From: a virus | Lineage: Duplodnaviria > Caudoviricetes | Strand: one strand, 5' to 3' | Virus record (IMG/VR): IMGVR_UViG_3300011435_000030 | Coordinates: 1-38,557 of that record | Length of the DNA: 38,557 nt | Part shown: piece by piece, positions 1-9,242 of the stretch | Numbering within the stretch: position 1 is the stretch's first letter | Layout of the letters: every line of letters begins with the position of its first letter | Made by a program: the position numbers and the translations under genes | The notes under the pieces: generated by a model | Databases searched by the model: none | What the model was told of the DNA's origin: nothing | The model's input: the letters and a program-made list of their open reading frames with translations, nothing else

Positions 1-51
1 ATCTCCCTGCTTCAAGAACTTGGACTCACGCATCTCGGAAACTTTGGGCAT
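1..51 (-). CDS. 5' end of phage protein running off the window (MPKVSEMRESKFLKQGD...), possibly ssDNA-binding/replication-region protein
   Basis: ATG at 51 with AGGAG RBS; S-K-F-L-K-x-x-D start resembles a common phage replication-region family (recalled, not searched). Confidence 0.5.
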   Translation of the reverse strand, partial: MPKVSEMRESKFLKQGD

Positions 52-131
52 CTCTTCTCTTCTCCTACTCAGTCGTCCTGTGATTCGGCCGGGGTCATCG
101 CCATCGCGGCCCCAGTAAGGTTCTAGTGCTC

Positions 132-350
132 TCACTTGCTCCGCTCGGTCAGCATCGCGTCGGCCAGTTCATAGGCAATCTTGGCGGCCCTGAGCTTCCC
201 GACATTGCCATAACCATCAGTGGTGAGATAGTCGGCCCACGTCTGGTTGCTGACCAGGGCTGCTACCGCCTTGGCCGCGAAGTAGTCCCGCAAACTAACT
301 GGCAATTCGAGCACGACTTGATCGCCACGCTTTGTGTCTTCCACTAGCAC
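132..350 (-). CDS. C-terminal part of conserved phage early protein (SLRDYFAAKA...AYELADAML family), apparently split from its N-terminus by an HNH insertion
   Basis: Family motifs LRDYFAAKA and AYxxADAML; the matching N-terminal NDGGPA motif is at the start of the upstream HNH ORF. Confidence 0.65.
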   Translation of the reverse strand: MLVEDTKRGDQVVLELPVSLRDYFAAKAVAALVSNQTWADYLTTDGYGNVGKLRAAKIAYELADAMLTERSK

Positions 351-801
351 ACCCCTTGCAGTAGGTCTTTCGGCCTAGCCATTTAGTAGTGTCCATCGAA
401 AACGCCGAGAGTGGCATCACGCGAAGGCAACCAGGGCACCGCCTCTGATCTGCCGGTATCGCGTAGAACTCGTCACCTTCGTGCGCAGCATGCCGCGTGT
501 TGCACGCTCGGCAAATAAGCCTATAGGCTCCAGACCTGTCGTGCTGGAGTGACATCACTGTAGATTCGCCGTCTTTAGCAAGCCAATTCATAACGCGCCC
601 GCACGGTGGACACACCATTCCATCAGGAATAAGCGTCTCAAATTGCTCGGTTGTAGGAACCGTTTTACCGTGACGCTTCGCACACGCGCGCATCGTTGCG
701 AACCGATAATGACGATGGCAATACTTCGCGTTGCCAAGCCGACGAAAGGCAGGCGAATTACAGTCGGCACGAGAGCACGCCGGCCCGCCGTCATTCGCCA
801 A
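295..801 (-). CDS. HNH/endonuclease VII-like Zn-finger endonuclease (probable homing endonuclease)
   Basis: CPPC...SLQHDRSGAYRLICRACN motif plus extra CxxC pairs; visibly lower GC than flanks; TTG start at 801 overlapping upstream gene end. Confidence 0.7.
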   Translation of the reverse strand: MANDGGPACSRADCNSPAFRRLGNAKYCHRHYRFATMRACAKRHGKTVPTTEQFETLIPDGMVCPPCGRVMNWLAKDGESTVMSLQHDRSGAYRLICRACNTRHAAHEGDEFYAIPADQRRCPGCLRVMPLSAFSMDTTKWLGRKTYCKGCASGRHKAWRSSRARIAS

Positions 802-1087
802 GGTAGCCAGCCTTTCGCAGCACATTGATCGCCCGCAGCTTCGGCACGTCCGACAGGTGCAGGTAGAGGCGCGGGTCGTAGCGATGCCACATCAGCACGA
901 GGTGATCGAACGCCGTCAGGCTGCGCTCGAGCCACGTCTGCTCAAGGTCCAACAGCCGCATGTCCCGCACGAGACACTGACGGCTCTCGGTGTCCGAGTA
1001 GACCCGCTGCTCGCGGGGGTCCCAGCCGGGACGGTCCATGTCGATCGACACGCGGCGCACCGCGTCGGTGATGCGATAGCCGCTCAC
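791..1087 (-). CDS. Hypothetical phage protein
   Basis: 98 aa ORF coupled to neighbours. Confidence 0.65.
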   Translation of the reverse strand: MSGYRITDAVRRVSIDMDRPGWDPREQRVYSDTESRQCLVRDMRLLDLEQTWLERSLTAFDHLVLMWHRYDPRLYLHLSDVPKLRAINVLRKAGYLGE

Positions 1088-1323
1088 GACTCACGCTCCA
1101 AGTCGCGCAGGTCGGCCCACAGACCCGTGATCGTCTCTATCAGCAACTCGCGCTGCTCCATCGACAGCAGGGCCGACACGCAGCCGAAGCGTTTCTGGCT
1201 GACCAGATCCGCCACGTCGAGAATGGCCTGCGTGTTGTCCGGCTCGGGCGGAATCCAGCCGCGCTGTTGCATGATGGCCCTCGGAATGTGTATAATTTCC
1301 ATCTCAGTGCCTCCTTGGGCCAC
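1084..1323 (-). CDS. Hypothetical phage protein
   Basis: 79 aa ORF; AGGAGG before internal Met suggests the start may be MEIIH. Confidence 0.6.
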   Translation of the reverse strand: MAQGGTEMEIIHIPRAIMQQRGWIPPEPDNTQAILDVADLVSQKRFGCVSALLSMEQRELLIETITGLWADLRDLERES

Positions 1324-1328
1324 CCCTG

Positions 1329-1643
1329 CTACTCACAGGTGGTGGCCCTTCGTCGTTCACGTTGAATCCGCTGGTAGTGCAACTCGATCATTCGCTCGAT
1401 CAACTCGGCCGGCATGTCGTCGCACATCTTGCCCTTGCCCATGCGCTTGGCCCCCTGCTGGCACCTCCAATCGCAATAGCGTTTGTTCCGATAGACCCGC
1501 AGCCCCAAGTCGGGGAACGTAGCGCCGCAGAACGTGCAATGCGTCGGCACCGGCTTGGCCTTGCCCTTCTGCCGCGCTCGGCTCGCACAGATGCCGCAGA
1601 AGTCCCCGCGACAGCGCCGGCCACAGGGGCAGTAGTTGGTCAC
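1329..1643 (-). CDS. Cys-rich zinc-finger protein
   Basis: GTGA-coupled start; CPCG..C, CGIC, CTFC...YCDWRC motifs. Confidence 0.65.
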   Translation of the reverse strand: MTNYCPCGRRCRGDFCGICASRARQKGKAKPVPTHCTFCGATFPDLGLRVYRNKRYCDWRCQQGAKRMGKGKMCDDMPAELIERMIELHYQRIQRERRRATTCE

Positions 1644-1786
1644 AGCAGAACCAGGCAGACACCAACCAGACCGACAAGCACCACAGCAATGACGTAGGGC
1701 CACACCTCGAAGTAGCCGTACTCGTCTGACCGTGTGTCTTCTGGGCTCAGTGGATTACGATCGCGTCCGAACGGCATCGCCGCCAT
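1640..1786 (-). CDS. Small membrane protein (C-terminal TM helix)
   Basis: TAATG coupling; ends VWPYVIAVVLVGLVGVCLVLL. Confidence 0.6.
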   Translation of the reverse strand: MAAMPFGRDRNPLSPEDTRSDEYGYFEVWPYVIAVVLVGLVGVCLVLL

Positions 1787-1926
1787 TACTCGTGTCTCTC
1801 CAGCAACCGCTTGAGCGCGCATTCCTCCATCATCAGGTCGCCGTGCTTGGCCGAACGGCAGAGCGCCCAGGTGAACGTGATGGCCGCGCCAAAGAGCACG
1901 GCGCCAGCAATGATGAGCATGTTCAT
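1786..1926 (-). CDS. Small membrane protein (N-terminal TM helix)
   Basis: MNMLIIAGAVLFGAAITFTWALC..., purine-rich RBS. Confidence 0.6.
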   Translation of the reverse strand: MNMLIIAGAVLFGAAITFTWALCRSAKHGDLMMEECALKRLLERHE

Positions 1927-1993
1927 GTCAGTCTCTCTTCGGTGAAGTGCCCCGATCCTTCCGTCGCGCTCGGGGCCAACGCTGCTTACCTGC

Positions 1994-2134
1994 TTACGGG
2001 CACTGGTCACACAGGAACGACCACCACGTCCCGCAGACGCCTTCGACCTTGCACCAGTCGATCGGCATCATCACCGCGAACGCCGATAACGCCGCCGCCG
2101 CCAACGCCGCACGAACCCAGGTCTTTGCCTTCAC
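1994..2134 (-). CDS. Small secreted Cys/Trp-rich peptide, 46 aa (not in ORF track)
   Basis: AAAGGAG RBS, GTG start; MKAKTWVRAALAAAALSAFAVMMPIDWCKVEGVCGTWWSFLCDQCP has a basic n-region, Ala/Leu h-region, AFA cleavage motif and 4 Cys. Confidence 0.7.
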   Translation of the reverse strand: MKAKTWVRAALAAAALSAFAVMMPIDWCKVEGVCGTWWSFLCDQCP

Positions 2135-2157
2135 GCACGCTCCTTTCGTTGGGGGGT

Positions 2158-2592
2158 TTACGCTGACAAACGCTGCACGATGCGGGCGAGGTTTTCGTTC
2201 TGCACCACAACCCCGCCGTTCGGTTCCGCGAACTCCCGTGCCAGTTCCAATTCAAATCGGTGCTGATACGGGCCGAAGTGGTAGCGGTCGAAGTGCATCG
2301 GCTCCTTGTTGTTCAACTGCCGGGAGAGCTGCGCGTAGTCCATCCTGGCGCGATAGGCCGCCTCTTTGATCGAGATCCCCGTGCGCGCCATCGCCCGAAC
2401 CACCTTCGCCACCAGTTCCCGCGACTCAGGCGTCGAGGCCCACGCCGCGCCGGCTCCAACCGCCACCAATAGCACCCACAGCGGGCCATACACCGCACGC
2501 AGCCGCGCGCAGACATACAGCGTCCCAAGAATCACCACCACCAACCCGAGGCAACCGACGCCGACCAAGAGGTAACGGAGAACGGTTTTCAT
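2158..2592 (-). CDS. Membrane-anchored HTH regulator (CII-like position)
   Basis: Two hydrophobic helices at N-terminus, then GISIKEAAYRARMDYAQLSRQLNN HTH; GGTGAGG RBS. Confidence 0.7.
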   Translation of the reverse strand: MKTVLRYLLVGVGCLGLVVVILGTLYVCARLRAVYGPLWVLLVAVGAGAAWASTPESRELVAKVVRAMARTGISIKEAAYRARMDYAQLSRQLNNKEPMHFDRYHFGPYQHRFELELAREFAEPNGGVVVQNENLARIVQRLSA

Positions 2593-2711
2593 ACAGACCT
2601 CACCTGCAAATAAATTGCGTATCGGTTTCCGTCTGACACGCGCAGACTCTCCCCATGACACGCCTACTGGTTGCCCCCGAAGGTTCGCGCCGCGGTCCCA
2701 CCGCGGACGTC

Positions 2712-2924
2712 ATGCTGCGACTGGAACCTCCCGTCCCCGGTCGCTTGCATCAGTTCCGGCCGCCAGCCGAGGGACCGGAACTGCCCCCCCTGTCGCAGAA
2801 GCCGGCGGTTGTCGATGGGCAGACGGCCGAACTGCTGGCCGCCATCAGCCGCGTGCGCTTCGCCACCGCGGCGCTGCGAGAGGCCCGCGCCGACCTCCTG
2901 CGCCTGATGCGGAAGTACCCGTGA
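2712..2924 (+). CDS. Possible small antisense-oriented protein in the early operon
   Basis: C-terminal amphipathic helix ELLAAISRVRFATAALREARADLLRLMRKYP; start uncertain (2655 or 2712). Confidence 0.35.
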   Translation: MLRLEPPVPGRLHQFRPPAEGPELPPLSQKPAVVDGQTAELLAAISRVRFATAALREARADLLRLMRKYP

Positions 2925-3016
2925 GGCCGCGTGAATCGTGTAATGTGGTCGAGGCGAACAGGTGTGGCCGAACGCGAAAACAGCGCGAGAAATTATGTAA
3001 CCTACGCCGTAGGCAT

Positions 3017-3044
3017 AGTTTACAGACCACTCATTATCAGACAC
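3017..3044 (-). other. dif-like XerC/XerD site 1 (degenerate XerD arm)
   Basis: - strand GTGTCTGATAA-TGAGTG-GTCTGTAAACT; 11-6-11 layout; XerC-type arm identical to the site at 32701-32728. Confidence 0.6.
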
Positions 3045-3094
3045 GCGCGGTTTTGCTGGCGATTCCGCGGCCATCGTTTCGGGCACCTGCCAGA

Positions 3095-3328
3095 TCATAC
3101 GGCTTCCTCGTATTCCGGCGGCCACTCCGCGATTGTCTCGATGGGGACGTGTGAGATTTTGGACAGTTTCAAGGCCAACGCCAGCGAACACCTGCGAGAT
3201 TTGCGGAGGACGTTACTCAGGTGCGACTCCGTACACCCCAACATCCTTGCCAATCTCGCGTTGTTCGTGCCGGTAGCGACCTGCCAGTCCTGAACAGACT
3301 GGAATGCGCGTCTGAAGTGTTTAGCCAT
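3095..3328 (-). CDS. cro: Cro-like XRE HTH regulator
   Basis: TNNARLARMLGCTESHLSNVLRKSRRCSLALALKLS HTH; divergent from the repressor. Confidence 0.8.
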   Translation of the reverse strand: MAKHFRRAFQSVQDWQVATGTNNARLARMLGCTESHLSNVLRKSRRCSLALALKLSKISHVPIETIAEWPPEYEEAV

Positions 3329-3361
3329 GCCTTGTTTGGGTTCTCCGTGAGTGCTGCGAAC

Positions 3362-3389
3362 ATACTACGCAAAATCAGAACGAAAGCAA
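3362..3389 (-). promoter_or_regulatory. Candidate sigma70 promoter for cro
   Basis: TTGCTT-16 bp-TAGTAT on - strand in AT-rich intergenic region. Confidence 0.45.
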
Positions 3390-3442
3390 GCATAATTCTT
3401 GAGGTTGTGTAGAAAACCCGCAAGTTGTTGACCGCAAAAGCG

Positions 3443-3485
3443 TTGGACTCTGACCTCAACTGGGGTATGTTTGCTGACAGCAAAC
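3443..3485 (+). promoter_or_regulatory. Candidate repressor promoter overlapped by a palindromic operator
   Basis: TTGGAC-17 bp-TATGTT; perfect 8-bp inverted repeat GTTTGCTG-A-CAGCAAAC at 3469-3485. Confidence 0.5.
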
Positions 3486-3500
3486 CGGACAGAGAGTCAC

Positions 3501-3959
3501 ATGGCACATCAGGACGCCGCAGCCCGCGTGCGACAGCGGATTAGAGACTGGCTGGAGAACGAAGGGCGCGGCGGAAAAAAGCGGCTGGCGGATGCCGTCA
3601 ACTCGCGCTATGGGCACACCAAGGGGGCGAGCTGGGTCACGGGGATCGTCAAGGGGCCGGACAATAAGGGCCAGGATCTCCGCTTGTCTAACCTCGATGA
3701 CGTTGCGGAGGTCATGGGCATCGCGCCGGGTGATCTGGTCCGGCACCCCGACAAGCACTGCATCGAAGTCACGGAGACGGAATTCCGCATTCTTCAATAC
3801 ATACGGGCGATGCCCGATACGATCCGCGCCGGGTACGTCAACTGGCTCGATTACCTGTTCAAGTTCAAGCGGGACGCGATGGCCGAGCAGGCCAAGGAAC
3901 GGGACCACCGCACGAGGCGCGCCCGACGACACGAGAGCAGCAACGCGCGGCCACACTGA
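3501..3959 (+). CDS. cI: CI-like phage repressor (XRE HTH, no S24 autopeptidase domain)
   Basis: HTH-like N-terminus (KKRLADAV...SWVTGIVKG...LRLSNLDDVAEVMGIAPGDLV), ETEFRILQYIRAMP helix, divergent from cro. Confidence 0.75.
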   Translation: MAHQDAAARVRQRIRDWLENEGRGGKKRLADAVNSRYGHTKGASWVTGIVKGPDNKGQDLRLSNLDDVAEVMGIAPGDLVRHPDKHCIEVTETEFRILQYIRAMPDTIRAGYVNWLDYLFKFKRDAMAEQAKERDHRTRRARRHESSNARPH

Positions 3960-4018
3960 CGGGCCAACCCACCTCACAAGCCGGGGCGGCTTGCGGTGCC
4001 CAGCGGGTCGGCCCGTCA
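3957..4018. terminator. Long stem-loop between convergent cI and late genes
   Basis: TGACGGGCCAACCC...GGGTCGGCCCGTCA outer stem with inner CAAGCC/GGCTTG hairpin. Confidence 0.55.
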
Positions 4019-4024
4019 ACCTCG

Positions 4025-7000
4025 TTAGTGAACCACCGTCCCCAGTGAGTAAATCGTCACCGTCTCCTCGCCGGACGTGGCGTTCGTCACCAGCAGCTTG
4101 AACTTCCGCGTATTGGACTGCGCGATGGTCATGGTGCCGCTCAGGGTGACATCGGTCCCGGCCGTGACCGTGATCGTCTCGGCCGCGTCCGCGGTGTTCC
4201 GAATGTCGAACTCGATAACGTCCCCCACCTCGGCGCAGGGGATGGCCGCGACGAGCTGCGCCGCGGTCGGCGTCACGTCCGACCGGTTGCTGCCGGCCGG
4301 GTCACGCAGAATCAGCCCGCCGATCACCTCCGAGGCGCTGTAGGTCGAGACGCCTGCCGTGGCGATGGTGGTCACGGTGAGCCGTGGGCGGAACGCAATC
4401 GAGCGCCAGTCCACTGCGGGCGACGTGCTGAGCAACAGCTTGAGCACGGGCGACGAGCAGGACAAATCGCCCCACAGGTCAGACGTCCGTACCGGCTCGG
4501 CCGGGGTCGAGACCGATGGCTCCGTCGCGCGGCCAAACAGCACCCGATCATCCATGTTGAAGCGGTCGGGGCGATTCGTGTTGACCGGCAGCGGTGGGTC
4601 GTCCGGGTCCACAGGGGGGTCGTCCGGGTCCACTGGCGGGTCTTCGGGAGGAACGATCTGCGTCAGCGTCACGATATAGTCCCGAGAGGCCGCGCGATCG
4701 TCGTCATCCGTCAGAATGACCGTGATCGGATAGGTGCCGGCCTCCACTCCGACGCCTGTCAGCGTGGCAGACGTGGAATCCACAGAGGTGAACGTGAGCC
4801 CTGACGGCAGGGTGCCTGACGTGGTCCACACGCAGGGCGTCTCCACGCAGGTGCCAGCGAAGGTCGCTGATGGATACGTCGCGCCAACCGTGCTATCTGA
4901 CAGGACCGTGGGGCTCAGAATCTCAGGCGGCGCGGTGACGGTGACGGTGCCAGAATTGTCGCCGCCGAGCGCAATGTTCGTCAGGGCGGTAATCGTGGAG
5001 ATATTCGCGCCGATGTCCGTCCCGTCCGTCGCGGCGTTGTGATACGTGCTGGTGGACTTGAGCGCAAAGTTACCGGCCGCGAAATCGACAAACTCACCCG
5101 CGAGTACCGCCGTGGTCGGGGCGAACGTCTCCGTACACCCGCCGGGGTAGTTCGCGCACGTGACATTGGCGACGACGTTGTTCTGCCAGACCGACGTGCC
5201 GGTGGTGTGCATTGTCCAGCAACCAGTGGTCGTCGCGTTGGTGAAGTCGCCCTGGCCGCACGAGAGGGCGCCGGTCACGCCGTAATTGAGCTTGTACCCG
5301 ATATTGTCGCGCCAGACGAAGTTCTCGGCCGCCTGCTCCACGGTCTTGTAAAGGTCGAACCAGATCAGCGCGTTGCCGGTTGTCTGGAGAAAACTGTTGT
5401 GGGCAACAGTCACGTCCAACGGGCCATTGGAGGTCGTATTGTTCGGCCAGTAGGCATTGCTGCCGTAGGTCGTAATCAGCAGCAACCGCACGCTCTGGCC
5501 CCACGCTGTGCCGATGTCGTAGAACAGATTATTGCTGATGGTCAGATCCTTGAGCCGCGCCGTTTGGCCGCCGCGTCCCATGATCTGCATCCCGCCCGCG
5601 GCGTTGCGGACGATGTTGTTCGTGAAGTCGATCTCCCCGACGTAGGTCGAGTCGTTGCCGTTACCGGTGTTGGCCGGGGTAAACAGAATCGCGTAGCCGT
5701 CCTGACCGTCTTCCCACACACCGTCGAAGACGTTCCCGTTGACGGTGATCCGGCGCCCGTTCTTGATCTCGAAGATGTTCTTGACGAACCACGTTGTCCC
5801 GCTCGACGTCGGCACGGTGCCAGAGGTTCCAGACGCTCCAGTGTCAACTTTAGTCACGGTCGGCGCCGTGACGGTCCAGTAGATGTTCTGGCCGCCCGAA
5901 GACCTGCCGTAGACGCGGTAGTCCACGGCGTTCGTGACCGCCGCCCATGTAATCGACACCGAACCCGTCGATCCTGTCGTGGTCACGCACTGCTGCGCTG
6001 AGGCTCCCGACGTGGCGGTGCCGTTGACCGCGGCCGGGTGACGCGCCACGACGCGGTAGCAGTAGCTGCCGGCGGCCAGCGTGCCACCCGTGGTCGAGGC
6101 CACCACGGCCACCGACTGCGGCGTGCCCACGATGGCTGAGCGCCAGGCTGGTGGCTTGTAGAAGTGATTCTTCTCAACGGTGACGTCGGACGGGATGATC
6201 CCCCAATCCACGTCCGCGCCAACCGATGGCGTCGTGCTCAGGGCCGGTGTCACCGTGATCGCATTCGAGGTGCAAGCCGCCTCAGCCACCGCGGTCCCGC
6301 AGGTGGCGACGTAGACCTGTTCCTCGACGCCACCGGCATTCGCGACCGTGATGGGGAGGCCCACGAACAAGTCCGTGCGACCGGAGAGCGTGAACGATGA
6401 CGCGCTCGCGGCCGAGGCGACCGTGATGTCCGGGTGGCAGCAGCCGCCAGCGCCGCCGAAGATGACCCCCTCGGCGCCGCCCTCGATGTAGTTGTTGGTC
6501 AGCGTACCGCCGGACGAGAACGAATTGAAGTAAATCGCCTGCCCTTCGCTGGTGGCCTTGATGTCCTTGATGTAGTTGTTCGTGATGATCCAGTTGTTCA
6601 CGTGGACGCGCATCCCGCGGAACTGGCCGGATACCGGGTTGCCGTAGATGTACACCTGATTGACGGTGAAGTGCGCCGGGATGCGGGCGATGGAGTCCTG
6701 CTCTCCGGTGTTGTCGCTGTCACTCCCGAGTTGAATCAGTGCCTCGCCGCCGTACGTGTTTGACGTGAACGCCAGGTGCTTGAGCGTCCAGTAGCCGCTG
6801 CTCCCGATGTCGCTGGCCGTGCGAATCGCAGGCGTGTTGTTCGTTTTCGCGCGCAGGATAGCCAGGTTGCTGCTCGTCGCGAGTGCCGGCGTCATGCGAA
6901 TGTCAGCGGCCGGGAACTGCGAGCTTGAGATGAGCGAGCCAGTTGACGTCACGCCCGTGCGAATCGTGACCATCGACGCACCCGTGTGCGCCGGCAGGAC

Positions 7001-7195
7001 CAGCGCGACGTCCGTAGTCGTGCCCTCTTGCAGCAGAATCGAGTCGCCGCCGACACTGGCGTTGATCGCCGTCGTCAGATTGGCTTCGGTGAGCGTATAC
7101 GTGCAACCAGACGCGCAGAGCGTGCGAACCGTCTGAGCCTGAGCCAGCGCCGGCACCAGTGCCAGCAGGAGAACCAGTAGTGATTTACGACCCAT
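4025..7195 (-). CDS. Large signal-peptide-bearing parallel beta-helix (pectin lyase-like) protein with FN3/Ig-like modules; putative depolymerase/adhesin
   Basis: MGRKSLLVLLLALVPALAQA signal; beta-helix Asn ladders (ITNNYI, VEKNHF, KNIFEIKNGRRITVNGNVF, FTNNIVRN); Ig-like GTLPSGLTF...GTYPITV; Pro/Asp linker. Confidence 0.8.
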   Translation of the reverse strand: MGRKSLLVLLLALVPALAQAQTVRTLCASGCTYTLTEANLTTAINASVGGDSILLQEGTTTDVALVLPAHTGASMVTIRTGVTSTGSLISSSQFPAADIRMTPALATSSNLAILRAKTNNTPAIRTASDIGSSGYWTLKHLAFTSNTYGGEALIQLGSDSDNTGEQDSIARIPAHFTVNQVYIYGNPVSGQFRGMRVHVNNWIITNNYIKDIKATSEGQAIYFNSFSSGGTLTNNYIEGGAEGVIFGGAGGCCHPDITVASAASASSFTLSGRTDLFVGLPITVANAGGVEEQVYVATCGTAVAEAACTSNAITVTPALSTTPSVGADVDWGIIPSDVTVEKNHFYKPPAWRSAIVGTPQSVAVVASTTGGTLAAGSYCYRVVARHPAAVNGTATSGASAQQCVTTTGSTGSVSITWAAVTNAVDYRVYGRSSGGQNIYWTVTAPTVTKVDTGASGTSGTVPTSSGTTWFVKNIFEIKNGRRITVNGNVFDGVWEDGQDGYAILFTPANTGNGNDSTYVGEIDFTNNIVRNAAGGMQIMGRGGQTARLKDLTISNNLFYDIGTAWGQSVRLLLITTYGSNAYWPNNTTSNGPLDVTVAHNSFLQTTGNALIWFDLYKTVEQAAENFVWRDNIGYKLNYGVTGALSCGQGDFTNATTTGCWTMHTTGTSVWQNNVVANVTCANYPGGCTETFAPTTAVLAGEFVDFAAGNFALKSTSTYHNAATDGTDIGANISTITALTNIALGGDNSGTVTVTAPPEILSPTVLSDSTVGATYPSATFAGTCVETPCVWTTSGTLPSGLTFTSVDSTSATLTGVGVEAGTYPITVILTDDDDRAASRDYIVTLTQIVPPEDPPVDPDDPPVDPDDPPLPVNTNRPDRFNMDDRVLFGRATEPSVSTPAEPVRTSDLWGDLSCSSPVLKLLLSTSPAVDWRSIAFRPRLTVTTIATAGVSTYSASEVIGGLILRDPAGSNRSDVTPTAAQLVAAIPCAEVGDVIEFDIRNTADAAETITVTAGTDVTLSGTMTIAQSNTRKFKLLVTNATSGEETVTIYSLGTVVH
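4596..4648. repeat. 21-bp tandem repeat encoding PPVDPDD linker
   Basis: gggtcgtccgggtccacwgg twice plus a partial third copy. Confidence 0.85.
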
Positions 7196-7400
7196 GAGTG
7201 ATAGACCCCGCATCTTTCCAAGTTTGTCCGTCGTCCCGTGATACTTCCCACCCGACTCGACTCCCGCCCCCAGGCACGGATGTCCACACCGGGCGCACCT
7301 TATACGACACACTGTCGCGCACGATCGTGATGGCGCCTTCAAACGACTGCGGCGCGATGAACTCCGTCGGTACATAGGCAAAGCGAGGATAGGAGGGCAT
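7185..7400 (-). CDS. Hypothetical protein (Asp-box-like SRDDGQTW motif)
   Basis: ATG 2 nt after upstream stop; overlaps next start. Confidence 0.65.
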   Translation of the reverse strand: MPSYPRFAYVPTEFIAPQSFEGAITIVRDSVSYKVRPVWTSVPGGGSRVGWEVSRDDGQTWKDAGSITHGS

Positions 7401-7765: not shown

Positions 7766-8416
7766 TCATGGCTTGACCGTCTTCTCCCAAAATTTTCCGA
7801 CACGCGACCGGATGGTCTCGGCCCCGACGCCCATCCCGACGCTGTTGGTCCCGAGTTGGACCATCATCACGACTTCGCCGGCTGCGTTGATGACTGGCCC
7901 GCCTGACTGCCCACCCACGAACGTGGCGTCGGTCATAAACAACGGCCCGCCGATGCCATCGTACGGAATGTAGGTTTCCGCTGAGATGTGCGTGAGCCTG
8001 AACAGGGGTCGCTCGAGGCCGTAGCCGTAGCCGAACGAGGCGATCTCGTCCCCGACCTTTGGGTTGTCCGCGGCCAGCTTCATGGAGGGCCTACCGCTGT
8101 CCTCGATGGACAGGACCAGCAAGTCCTTCTCCTTGTTTTTGGCGATGACCTTGGCCTCGGCCTGGTCAGCCCAGAGCTTGACGGCCTCGCAATGCGCTGC
8201 GGTCAAGATGAAATCGACGTCATCGTCATCCTTGTCCTTGGCCTTACTGTTGATGACGAACCCCGTGCAACTGGTGCCGGCGTCGTTGCGCTCGATGGTG
8301 ACGACGGACTTCTCCAGCGTTTTCACCAGTGCCGTCCAATCCGTACGCGCGTGCAGTGGCACACCGCAGAATGCGTAAAGTCCCGCCACGACCGCCACGA
8401 ATGCACGCCTCATCAC
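7766..8416 (-). CDS. Secreted trypsin-like serine protease (S1, HtrA-like catalytic domain without PDZ)
   Basis: Signal peptide; CTGFVI, LTAAHC (His), KDLLVL (Asp), GGQSGGPVIN (Ser). Confidence 0.9.
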   Translation of the reverse strand: MMRRAFVAVVAGLYAFCGVPLHARTDWTALVKTLEKSVVTIERNDAGTSCTGFVINSKAKDKDDDDVDFILTAAHCEAVKLWADQAEAKVIAKNKEKDLLVLSIEDSGRPSMKLAADNPKVGDEIASFGYGYGLERPLFRLTHISAETYIPYDGIGGPLFMTDATFVGGQSGGPVINAAGEVVMMVQLGTNSVGMGVGAETIRSRVGKFWEKTVKP

Positions 8417-8427
8417 CAGCCCCCTAT

Positions 8428-8859
8428 TCAGTCACTCTCACTCGCTATACCCATATCGACAATCCGCGCAGACGGTTGGGTCGTGGTACAGCCCATCGCC
8501 GCGTACTCCGGTCCAAAGCGCCGCGTAGGCGCCGCCAGCTCGGAGGTTGCTGACGGCTCCGCACTGGGTGCAGGTAACGTCTCGTCCAAAAGGAGGACCG
8601 CTAGCAACGAATACACCGCGTTGTCCACCAGCGAGTCCCGCAGGCTCTCGTGCTTCGGCGTCTTGCCGCTCACCAGTTGCTTGATCCGACTCCATTTATC
8701 CGTCAGCCTCACCAGCACACCCGTCAGCGCAGGCACGCCCATCGCTTCACATTCCCGCAGGTTGCTCAGCGGGTCGCCGTCATGTGTGTAATCGTGGTTC
8801 TTGGAATCGTGCAGCGCCCGAATCTCATCGAGCAGTGCCACGAACGCCGGGTTCCTCAC
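8428..8859 (-). CDS. DUF1599 / nucleotide-modification-associated domain 1-like protein
   Basis: SKNHDY..DPLSN, GVLVRLTDKWSRI, ESLRDSLVDNAVYSLL motifs. Confidence 0.75.
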   Translation of the reverse strand: MRNPAFVALLDEIRALHDSKNHDYTHDGDPLSNLRECEAMGVPALTGVLVRLTDKWSRIKQLVSGKTPKHESLRDSLVDNAVYSLLAVLLLDETLPAPSAEPSATSELAAPTRRFGPEYAAMGCTTTQPSARIVDMGIASESD

Positions 8860-9242
8860 TCAGTTTCCTCCCGCACCAGCAGCGGCCCGAACGGGGCTTT
8901 CGGTGGCGCGTGCTTGAAATCGTCAAACGTCCATACCCGCTGATCGGTGTCGAAGATCAGCCCGTGCCGCAGCACCACGACGTGGTAACTCTTGCGGTAC
9001 TTCACCTGCAACAACCCCTCGTCCGTCTCGGACCACTTGCGCTTCACCACCATGCGCGTGCCGAGTGTCTCGGCCGCTCGCTTCAAGTGGGTCCACCACA
9101 CGCCACTCTTCAGCACTGACGGCGCTTCGCTCCCAATGGCGATCAGGGCGTCCTCATAACTCACGCCCAGGAACATGGCGAGGCAGGCCACGCCGCAATC
9201 AGACTCGTGCCGCTGGGCGACGACCCTGATCAGCGCCTTCAC
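8856..9242 (-). CDS. Peptidase C39-like cysteine protease
   Basis: QRHESDCGVACLAM catalytic Cys motif, HVVV His, IFD Asp. Confidence 0.85.
   Translation of the reverse strand: MKALIRVVAQRHESDCGVACLAMFLGVSYEDALIAIGSEAPSVLKSGVWWTHLKRAAETLGTRMVVKRKWSETDEGLLQVKYRKSYHVVVLRHGLIFDTDQRVWTFDDFKHAPPKAPFGPLLVREETE

What the first reader, a model, noticed from the sequence alone, without database searches (positions are those of the whole stretch)
1994..2592. Candidate phage peptide-signalling module: membrane-tethered CII-like HTH plus a secreted Cys/Trp peptide in the lysis-lysogeny region
Seen: downstream of cro, the gene in the CII position encodes two TM helices fused to an HTH. It is followed by an unannotated 46-aa ORF with a strong RBS, a Sec-type signal (AFA) and a mature part of about 26 aa, VMMPIDWCKVEGVCGTWWSFLCDQCP (4 Cys, 3 Trp). 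Known: in arbitrium, a secreted peptide and its receptor control lysogeny; CII proteins are normally soluble. Inference: an exported, possibly disulfide-bonded peptide sensed through a membrane-bound regulator could be a new communication or decision system unrelated to AimR/AimP. The phage-encoded secreted S1 protease is a possible processing enzyme.
Basis: partly seen in the sequence, partly recalled or inferred. Interest (0 to 1): 0.82.

Follow-up and report, generated by a model that had tools for sequence, protein, structure and literature searches.

The report
Membrane-anchored CII-like phage regulator
An uncultured phage carries, where temperate phages keep their lysogeny activator, a DNA-binding-type protein with a conserved hydrophobic hairpin predicted to anchor it in the membrane, and the small cysteine/tryptophan gene behind it is likely a separate envelope protein rather than a signal that the regulator receives.

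Summary
Both ORFs are in the sequence as described. The 144-aa protein belongs to a family of 25 sequences, 22 of which keep a strongly hydrophobic first helix before an XRE-type HTH, so the upstream start is real. Soluble relatives follow the cI/cro pair in five related phages. A tree of the HTH domain alone splits soluble from tethered forms (98/95). A CAA-N5-TTG palindrome lies 13-17 nt before the start in 4 of 7 loci, within a conserved promoter-like block facing cI: a 186/lambda establishment layout. The 46-aa ORF has one close homolog (76% identity; RBS and four Cys kept, but dN/dS 0.81). A probable distant homolog in phage G005 follows a SOLUBLE HTH, carries an extra N-terminal membrane helix and has different Cys spacing. 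The tethered regulator has no TPR and only a loop of about 9 residues outside, so it is not arbitrium/RRNPP, and nothing links peptide to regulator as ligand and receptor. Best reading: a membrane-anchored CII analogue plus an accessory envelope peptide.

The parts
2158..2592 (-). 144-aa regulator: N-terminal hydrophobic hairpin + XRE-type HTH, in the CII position
2512..2574 (-). Predicted TM1 (about residues 7-27)
   Evidence: KD peak 2.51; KD17>=1.6 in 22 of 25 family rows
2437..2487 (-). Predicted TM2 (about residues 36-52), ending in the family motif A-A-W
   Evidence: helix 37-51; A50 and W51 near-invariant; KD17>=1.6 in only 12 of 25 rows
2218..2433 (-). XRE-type HTH domain (about residues 54-125); conserved Q-x-S-R, taken as the recognition helix (inference)
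   Evidence: dN/dS 0.08 against L005 over residues 53-144
1994..2134 (-). 46-aa ORF: signal/anchor-like N-terminus, Cys/Trp-rich tail
2140..2145 (-). AAGGAG ribosome-binding site of the 46-aa ORF, identical in L005
2606..2618 (.). GCAA-N5-TTGC inverted repeat (core CAA-N5-TTG at 2607-2617), candidate operator of the regulator
   Evidence: arms kept and spacer changed in L005; same core at the same offset in G005 and G053
2593..2657 (+). Non-coding block conserved with L005 up to the divergent ATG; candidate establishment promoter facing cI (possible -10 CAGACT at 2643-2648)
   Evidence: promoter is inference, not found by the consensus scan
2655..2924 (+). Divergent 89-aa ORF at the head of the candidate rightward transcript; not homologous to the L005 counterpart
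3095..3328 (-). cro-like HTH gene
3501..3959 (+). cI-like gene, divergent from cro; named by position and by a resemblance, seen by eye, to the XRE gene at the same place in G005
   Evidence: no family hit for the window protein itself
1786..1926 (-). Next small hydrophobic ORF (F-x-W-A-L-C-R type), also in L005 and G053
1640..1786 (-). Third small ORF with a C-terminal hydrophobic stretch
7766..8416 (-). Trypsin_2 (S1) protease with a signal-like N-terminus, in the late region; link to the peptide unproven

Best explanation
The 144-aa gene encodes an XRE-type HTH protein with an N-terminal hydrophobic hairpin predicted to anchor it in the host membrane, and it likely works as a CII-type lysogeny-establishment activator, while the 46-aa gene likely encodes a separate small envelope protein rather than its ligand. 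Shown by the data: the hairpin-HTH fusion is conserved across a family; soluble relatives occupy the same genomic slot; and a palindrome sits at a fixed distance from the start. Inferred: a dimer binds CAA-N5-TTG just upstream of its own start codon and switches on a rightward transcript that runs antisense through cro towards cI, as 186 CII does at pE. Also inferred: both termini are cytoplasmic, with only about 9 residues outside. Tethering would bring the activator to the membrane proteases that set CII levels in lambda and 186 (FtsH, RseP), so membrane proteolysis or release would tune the decision. The peptide is inferred to be inserted N-in/C-out, with its Cys/Trp tail kept at the membrane or released to the periplasm, acting on the envelope (protease modulation or exclusion) whether or not the HTH is tethered.
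For: Fusion: (TM1 in 22 of 25 rows; TM region dN/dS 0.41). Fold. Soluble relatives downstream of the cI/cro pair in G005, G023, G032, G053 and G064, with further genes in between in G023 and G053. HTH-only tree puts the 6 soluble rows on one side of a 98/95 branch. The palindrome lies 14, 14, 13 and 17 nt before the start and 37, 39, 38 and 42 nt from a divergent ATG in window, L005, G005 and G053; background 0.12 per kb, about 1e-3 per 8-nt offset window. The HTH family shares S-R in its putative recognition helix, whereas the cI and Cro helices of window and G005 differ by eye, which points to this family as the binder. Weak CII-labelled PHROG hits: phrog_101 E 0.017 for the window HTH, phrog_725 E 0.006 for G053. 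Peptide independent of the tether: G005. Small TM ORFs are common after cro in these phages. FtsH/RseP control of 186 CII: PMC7708051 and PMC8538670, passages.
Against: The palindrome is missing at that offset in G064, G023 and G032 (3 of 7 loci). The core was defined after seeing G005, and the G053 offset needs an ATG other than the start my SD heuristic picked. Two more copies of the core lie in cro and in the cro-cI gap (3239, 3435), so CI or Cro could be the binder. The consensus scan found no rightward promoter there. No Pfam CII family was hit. No integrase was found in the window (74% complete), in G005, or in the complete G023; G064 has one, so lysogeny is inferred. TM2 is only moderately hydrophobic and the loop is basic in most rows, so topology is uncertain. 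G005-peptide homology is suggestive only: hhalign P 0.0016, probability 16%; shuffles 53 of 5000, tails alone 1376 of 5000, and an unrelated Ala-rich TM ORF scored 62 of 2000. The bootstrap had not settled, and the one-clade test did not finish.
Confidence: 0.5

Rival explanations
1. One reading: the 46-aa ORF is a propeptide exported by Sec, cut after A-F-A (perhaps trimmed by the phage S1 protease), disulfide-bonded and diffusible, and sensed through the tethered regulator to steer lysis versus lysogeny.
For: Basic n-region, Ala-rich marginal h-region and A-x-A kept in L005 (A-V-A), as are the 4 Cys and the RBS. The genes are adjacent (23 nt apart) in both tethered loci seen. Both long peptide-bearing records carry a Trypsin_2 protease, against 3 of 27 related records overall.
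Against: The probable homolog follows a soluble HTH in G005, as the second TM of a 79-aa protein, with 2 Cys in another spacing. The regulator exposes about 9 residues, with no TPR or sensor fold. The mature part is unchanged over 13 consecutive residues between window and L005, so no specificity change is seen there. The protease also occurs in G012 and G043, where no peptide was found. Peptide dN/dS is 0.81.
Confidence: 0.1
2. Co-component model (ToxR/ToxS- or TcpP/TcpH-like): the peptide stays in the membrane, packs against the hairpin and protects the regulator from proteolysis, its Cys tail reporting periplasmic redox.
For: Adjacent downstream gene with one TM and an outward Cys-rich tail, the arrangement described for co-component cassettes (10.1101/2022.04.08.487670, passages). 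The internal position of the helix in G005 suits an uncleaved anchor.
Against: In G005 the HTH has no membrane part to pair with. The regulator has no periplasmic domain, and the peptide is far too short for a lipocalin barrel.
Confidence: 0.15
3. The tethered HTH is a repressor or auxiliary early regulator (autoregulating at the palindrome), or the palindrome is a CI/Cro operator; it has no role in establishing lysogeny.
For: Best PHROG hits are labelled repressor (phrog_4583, phrog_2328). The palindrome is 14 nt from its own start. 3 of the 4 copies in the window lie in the 2.6-3.5 kb control region. No integrase was found in window, G005 or G023.
Against: Fixed 37-42 nt spacing to a divergent ATG, and a conserved block that ends at that ATG. 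Constant position downstream of the cI/cro pair in the 7 loci seen.
Confidence: 0.2
4. The 46-aa ORF is not a selected gene; it is a drifting by-product between two genes.
For: dN/dS 0.81, differences 7/7/7 by codon position, and amino-acid identity as high in other frames, one of which is also open in both copies. No family or further homolog found.
Against: Identical RBS, a usable start codon and an open frame in both copies, with conservative replacements and all 4 Cys kept. One local Leu/Ala swap inflates dN. The only one of 18 SD-led small hydrophobic ORFs in 17 other records with at least 3 Trp and 2 Cys in its tail lies in the same slot in G005.
Confidence: 0.1

Closest known systems
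Coliphage 186 CII / pE and lambda CII / PRE (PMC8538670, PMC7708051, passages)
   Same: HTH gene in the early operon after cro; a site next to it, with a promoter-like block facing back towards cI; CII level set by FtsH and RseP is the proposed control point.
   Different: Those proteins are soluble; here a TM hairpin is fused N-terminally. No hit to Pfam Phage_CP76 or Phage_CII; the nearest folds are XRE/C-proteins.
Transmembrane transcription regulators (PMC10269533, abstract and section 6; ToxR/TcpP cassettes, 10.1101/2022.04.08.487670, passages)
   Same: A DNA-binding HTH anchored by TM helices; a small adjacent membrane gene.
   Different: Order is TM-TM-HTH with no periplasmic sensor domain; phage-borne (the TTR survey's main text has 0 occurrences of 'phage'); the partner is 46 aa, not a lipocalin.
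Arbitrium AimR/AimP and RRNPP systems (PMC10075063, passages)
   Same: Adjacent regulator and small signal-peptide-like ORF in a phage decision region.
   Different: The receptor is 144 aa, membrane-anchored and without TPRs, against 250-500 aa, cytosolic and TPR-bearing; the candidate mature part is about 26 aa and Cys-rich.
VqmA-Qtip and TF-smORF modules (PMC10432266, passages)
   Same: A regulator gene with a counter-oriented small ORF beside it.
   Different: The divergent ORFs here are not homologous to each other, and in L005 and G053 they overlap a sense-strand gene, so the promoter rather than the ORF seems conserved; these are not repA-telN linear plasmid phages.
Lambda CIII (PMC1838920, search listing only)
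   Same: A short phage polypeptide that could act on a membrane protease controlling CII; a lead for the peptide's role.
   Different: No sequence similarity was found in family scans; CIII is cytoplasmic and encoded in the other early operon (recalled).

Membership tests
RRNPP / arbitrium | Receptor of 250-500 aa | tested here: not met
   144 aa; family 118-187 aa; criterion from PMC10075063
RRNPP / arbitrium | Receptor bears TPRs | tested here: not met
   No TPR family for the window protein (0 Pfam families at E<=1), none among the 25 of 27 families shown for the 25 members; the model is hairpin + HTH only
RRNPP / arbitrium | Small adjacent propeptide gene | tested here: met
   46 aa, 23 nt downstream
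RRNPP / arbitrium | Propeptide secreted by Sec and cleaved | not testable with these tools
   Pattern fits by eye; no SignalP available
Lambda CII (PF05269) / 186 CII (PF06892) | Sequence match to the family profile | tested here: not met
   PF06892: 0 of 5 records at E<=1; no Pfam family for the window protein at E<=1; only weak PHROG CII-like hits, E 0.006-0.09
Lambda CII (PF05269) / 186 CII (PF06892) | Fold like the solved CII structures | tested here: inconclusive
   Not among the listed rows; top rows are XRE/C-proteins at Z<=7.2
CII-type establishment activator (functional class) | Located downstream of cro in the early operon | tested here: met
   Window and L005; soluble relatives downstream of the cI/cro pair in 5 records, with genes in between in some
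CII-type establishment activator (functional class) | Binding site and counter-oriented promoter aimed at cI | tested here: inconclusive
   Palindrome at fixed offset in 4 of 7 loci; promoter not detected by the consensus scan
CII-type establishment activator (functional class) | Activates cI transcription and is needed for lysogeny | not testable with these tools
   Needs experiment; integrase not in the 74%-complete record
XRE / Cro-C1 HTH superfamily | Five-helix HTH domain | tested here: met
   Xre-like-HTH in 5, HTH_31 in 4 and HTH_3 in 3 of 25 members at E<=1
Transmembrane transcription regulator | DNA-binding domain plus predicted TM helix in one chain | tested here: met
   Hydropathy only; membrane insertion not shown
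ToxR/ToxS-type co-component system | Periplasmic domain on the regulator and lipocalin-like partner | tested here: not met
   Loop of about 9 residues; partner 46 aa, helical low-confidence model

The most novel reading that the evidence does not exclude
These phages run an envelope-based decision circuit of their own. A Cys/Trp peptide, displayed or shed outside the inner membrane, reports co-infection density or periplasmic redox. It controls whether a CII-type activator, in one lineage physically tethered to the membrane, survives or is released to switch on cI. This would be a phage peptide-communication system unrelated to arbitrium and without an intracellular TPR receptor.
Probability: 0.12. 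Interest if true: 0.85.

Novelty: new variant of a known kind. Interest (0 to 1): 0.5.

Why it matters
Known CII-type activators are soluble proteins whose level is set by host membrane proteases. A family that has fused a membrane hairpin onto the activator, probably once, would tie the lysis-lysogeny decision directly to the state of the host membrane. It also offers a small natural pair, soluble versus tethered, with a candidate shared operator, for asking how a membrane-bound factor reaches DNA and what tethering changes. My paper searches listed no phage example by title or abstract start, but that library is partial. If the peptide also proved to be a signal, it would be a second, unrelated phage peptide language; the present evidence makes that unlikely.

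Tried and rejected
Complex prediction of regulator with peptide was not available, so binding is untested.

Searches for more tethered-form loci found none:
- IMG/VR with the window protein, A4 and P0005.
- GTDB with A6; annotated phages.
- Capsid-related records: 0 of 24 and 0 of 50 (50 of 59 new loci given, nine short ones left out) held a tethered form. Most of these records are fragments.

Peptide searches found no further member:
-.
- Profile A7 in 0 of 50 records (no positive control in that call).
- Pattern scan: 20 hits, only G005 preceded by a TM, and the pattern was built with G005.

Ideas rejected:
- The regulator's hairpin and the G005 2-TM protein are homologous (shuffles 1359 of 5000).
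- The divergent ORF is a conserved smORF (E 17 against L005).
- A start downstream of the hairpin as the only start: family starts cluster upstream of TM1, and later in-frame starts cut into HTH helix 1.

Other calls that gave nothing:
- No Rfam match in 1-5000.
- ESM Atlas hits all under 0.9.
- Peptide model pLDDT 63.5, not used for a fold search.
- No RNA holder listed; contigs of close runs gave almost no variation over the peptide.
- Host not identified: capsid relatives in only two MAGs of different phyla; cultured phages at about 31% identity or less.
- Earlier-findings look-ups were empty.

Full report
Setting. The window is a linear virus record of 38,557 bp, 74% complete, 63% GC. It has terminase, major capsid and tail genes on the minus strand and a divergent pair near 3.1-4.0 kb: a cro-like HTH (3095-3328 -) and a cI-like gene (3501-3959 +). 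The cI-like gene has no family hit of its own; it is named by position and by resemblance, seen by eye, to the XRE gene at the same place in G005. The runs that hold half or more of the region are listed as freshwater sediment metagenomes. The host is unknown. No tyrosine integrase was found in the window, G005, G001 or the complete G023; G064 has one (1 of 5). A temperate life style is therefore inferred from the cI/cro layout.

Observation. Both ORFs are as described. The regulator starts at ATG 2592 with GAGG 5 nt upstream and has hydropathy peaks of 2.51 and 1.65. The 46-aa ORF starts at GTG 2134 with AAGGAG 5 nt upstream and ends at 1994.

The hairpin is part of the protein. A scan of 1.84 billion representatives gave 24 homologs at E<=0.001. 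In the 25-row alignment the called starts cluster before the first hydrophobic helix, and A50, W51, A79, Q92, R103 and G126 are near-invariant. TM1 reaches KD17>=1.6 in 22 of 25 rows and TM2 in 12 of 25; the remaining scored rows lie at 1.1-1.56. The three rows without TM1 are one starting within TM1 (P0010), one starting at TM2 (P0024) and one soluble protein (P0022). Against the 89%-identical L005 copy, dN/dS is 0.41 for residues 1-52 and 0.08 for the HTH part. AlphaFold2 on the alignment (pLDDT 92, pTM 0.65) gives helices 2-35 and 37-51 followed by an HTH domain. Its nearest solved folds are XRE and restriction-modification C-proteins (Z 7.2 at best, no Foldseek hit at E<=0.001). The N-terminus and the stretch after TM2 are basic, which favours both ends inside. 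The loop of about 9 residues is also basic in most rows, so topology is a prediction. There is no room for a sensor domain and no TPR.

Soluble relatives sit in the same part of the genome. I collected capsid-related records and searched them with family profiles: 24 records, 50 of 59 further loci, and 45 records with a mixed profile. Five carry a relative downstream of the cI/cro pair: G005, G023, G032, G053 and G064, all without the hairpin, with further genes in between in G023 and G053. None of the 74 carried the tethered form, but most are fragments. A tree of the HTH domain alone puts the six soluble rows on one side of a 98/95 branch. The bootstrap had not settled, the cI outgroup fell among tethered rows on a long branch, and the one-clade test did not finish. 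A single gain of the hairpin is thus compatible with the data, not proven.

A candidate operator. Between window and L005, DNA identity runs unbroken from the gene upstream to the divergent ATG at 2655 and stops there. The block holds GCAA-N5-TTGC, with the arms kept and 2 of 5 spacer bases changed. The core CAA-N5-TTG lies 14, 14, 13 and 17 nt before the start codon and 37, 39, 38 and 42 nt from a divergent ATG in window, L005, G005 and G053. It is absent at that offset in G064, G023 and G032. The background is 84 sites in 683 kb, about 1e-3 per 8-nt window. Three caveats apply: the core was trimmed after seeing G005; G053 needs an ATG downstream of the start my SD heuristic chose; and two of the window's other three copies lie in cro and the cro-cI gap. 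The family shares S-R in its putative recognition helix, while the cI and Cro helices of window and G005 differ by eye, which makes this family the likelier binder. A rightward transcript from here would cross cro antisense and reach cI, as 186 CII activates pE to make CI (PMC8538670, passages). The consensus scan saw no promoter at this place; activator-dependent promoters often score poorly in such scans (recalled). The divergent ORFs are not homologous and overlap sense genes in L005 and G053, so I read the start site, not the ORF, as conserved. In the window the ORF may still be coding: 4 of the 5 listed differences in one relative contig fall on third positions (15 of that contig's 19 differences were shown), while one difference in another contig is at a first position.

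The peptide. One close homolog exists (P0004, L005:1644-1793; 76% identity, same RBS, all four Cys, A-V-A for A-F-A). Selection is not evident: dN/dS is 0.81, differences fall 7/7/7 by codon position, and other frames are as similar, though one local Leu/Ala swap inflates dN. No family matched.

In G005 the gene directly after the soluble HTH is a 79-aa ORF with AGGAG, two hydrophobic helices and a tail that shares M-x-I-D-W, a Gly and S-F-L at identical spacing with the window peptide, but has two Cys in another register. Its homology is probable, not established. For: hhalign P 0.0016, probability 16%; shuffles 53 and 17 of 5000; a profile from window and L005 alone ranks it fourth of 14,506 other segments (E 2.3); and it is the only one of 18 SD-led small hydrophobic ORFs in 17 other records with at least 3 Trp and 2 Cys in its last 25 residues. 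Against: tails alone 1376 of 5000, and a control TM ORF scored 62 of 2000. I put homology near 70%. If so, the peptide does not need a tethered regulator, and its hydrophobic helix can be an internal second TM. Four of five soluble loci lack it, and small TM genes of other kinds are common in this region, including two more right after the peptide in the window.

The protease. Trypsin_2 is in G000 and G005 but not in G064, G053 or G023 (2 of 5). Among 27 longer records the window protease matched G005, G012 and G043; no peptide was found in the last two. It lies among late genes.

Mechanism, ranked. (1) Membrane-anchored CII analogue plus an independent envelope peptide, 0.5. Fusion, position and palindrome are shown; binding, activation, topology and control by FtsH/RseP are inferred from 186 and lambda (PMC7708051 and PMC3053222, passages). 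That 186 paper also cautions that protease-deletion data do not show the phage sensing protease changes. (2) Repressor or auxiliary regulator, 0.2. (3) ToxR/ToxS-like membrane partner, 0.15 (10.1101/2022.04.08.487670, passages). (4) Secreted signal sensed by the tethered regulator, 0.1. (5) Peptide ORF not a selected gene, 0.1. These overlap in part.

Comparison and novelty. It fails two defining RRNPP tests, receptor size and TPRs (PMC10075063, passages), and does not match the Pfam CII families. It works like a CII and is built like a transmembrane transcription regulator (PMC10269533: abstract, section 6 and a term search with 0 hits for 'phage'; supplements not read). TF-smORF modules (PMC10432266, passages) share only the counter-oriented layout. 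Searches for a phage-encoded membrane-anchored regulator of lysogeny or a disulfide peptide signal gave 4, 112, 0, 0 and 41 papers (4, 20, 0, 0 and 15 listed), none on such a system by title or abstract start. The library is partial. Verdict: new variant of a known kind, interest 0.5. The main limit is that DNA context was seen for only 2 of the 24 tethered rows, and these two are 89% identical.

Noticed in passing
L030:1172-1411 (-) (G005): 79-aa two-TM ORF with a Trp/Cys tail directly behind a soluble CII-like HTH; probable distant homolog of the window peptide.
   Followed up: yes
window 2655-2924 (+); L030:1797-1967 (+); L005:861-1118 (-): Unrelated divergent ORFs, each with a coiled-coil-like stretch by eye, start 37-39 nt from the palindrome; the window one shows mostly third-position changes in one relative contig.
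   Followed up: partly
window 1786-1926 (-); L005:1708-1863 region (+); L111:1149-1331 (+): A small single-TM gene family with F-x-W-A-L-C-R occurs next to the CII-like gene in three phages, after it in two and before it in G053.
   Followed up: partly
alignment A1, column of window residue 60: Met in 13 of 25 rows just after the hairpin (read); an internal start there would give a soluble isoform, but the other rows have mostly Ile/Val/Leu, so it may simply be a core position.
   Followed up: no
window 3239-3249 and 3435-3445: Two more CAA-N5-TTG copies in cro and in the cro-cI gap (3 of the window's 4 copies lie within 2.6-3.5 kb); also an 8-bp-arm inverted repeat overlapping the cI upstream region near 3469-3485.
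   Followed up: no
window 8856-9242 (-): Stand-alone 128-aa Peptidase_C39 domain (22.4 bits, cut-off 22) in the late region, near the S1 protease and a metallophosphoesterase.
   Followed up: no
window 4025-7381 (-): 1118-aa Thr/Gly-rich protein, probably a tail or surface protein, whose last 117 residues match phrog_673 (E 2e-36); it converges on cI, leaving no leftward early operon.
   Followed up: no
G023 (complete record): Has a cro-like gene and a CII-like gene but no tyrosine integrase hit; maintenance mode unexplained.
   Followed up: no
window 295-825 (-) and 1329-1643 (-): Cys-rich early ORFs with weak hits to endonuclease VII / Lar-like and DksA-like zinc-finger PHROGs.
   Followed up: no
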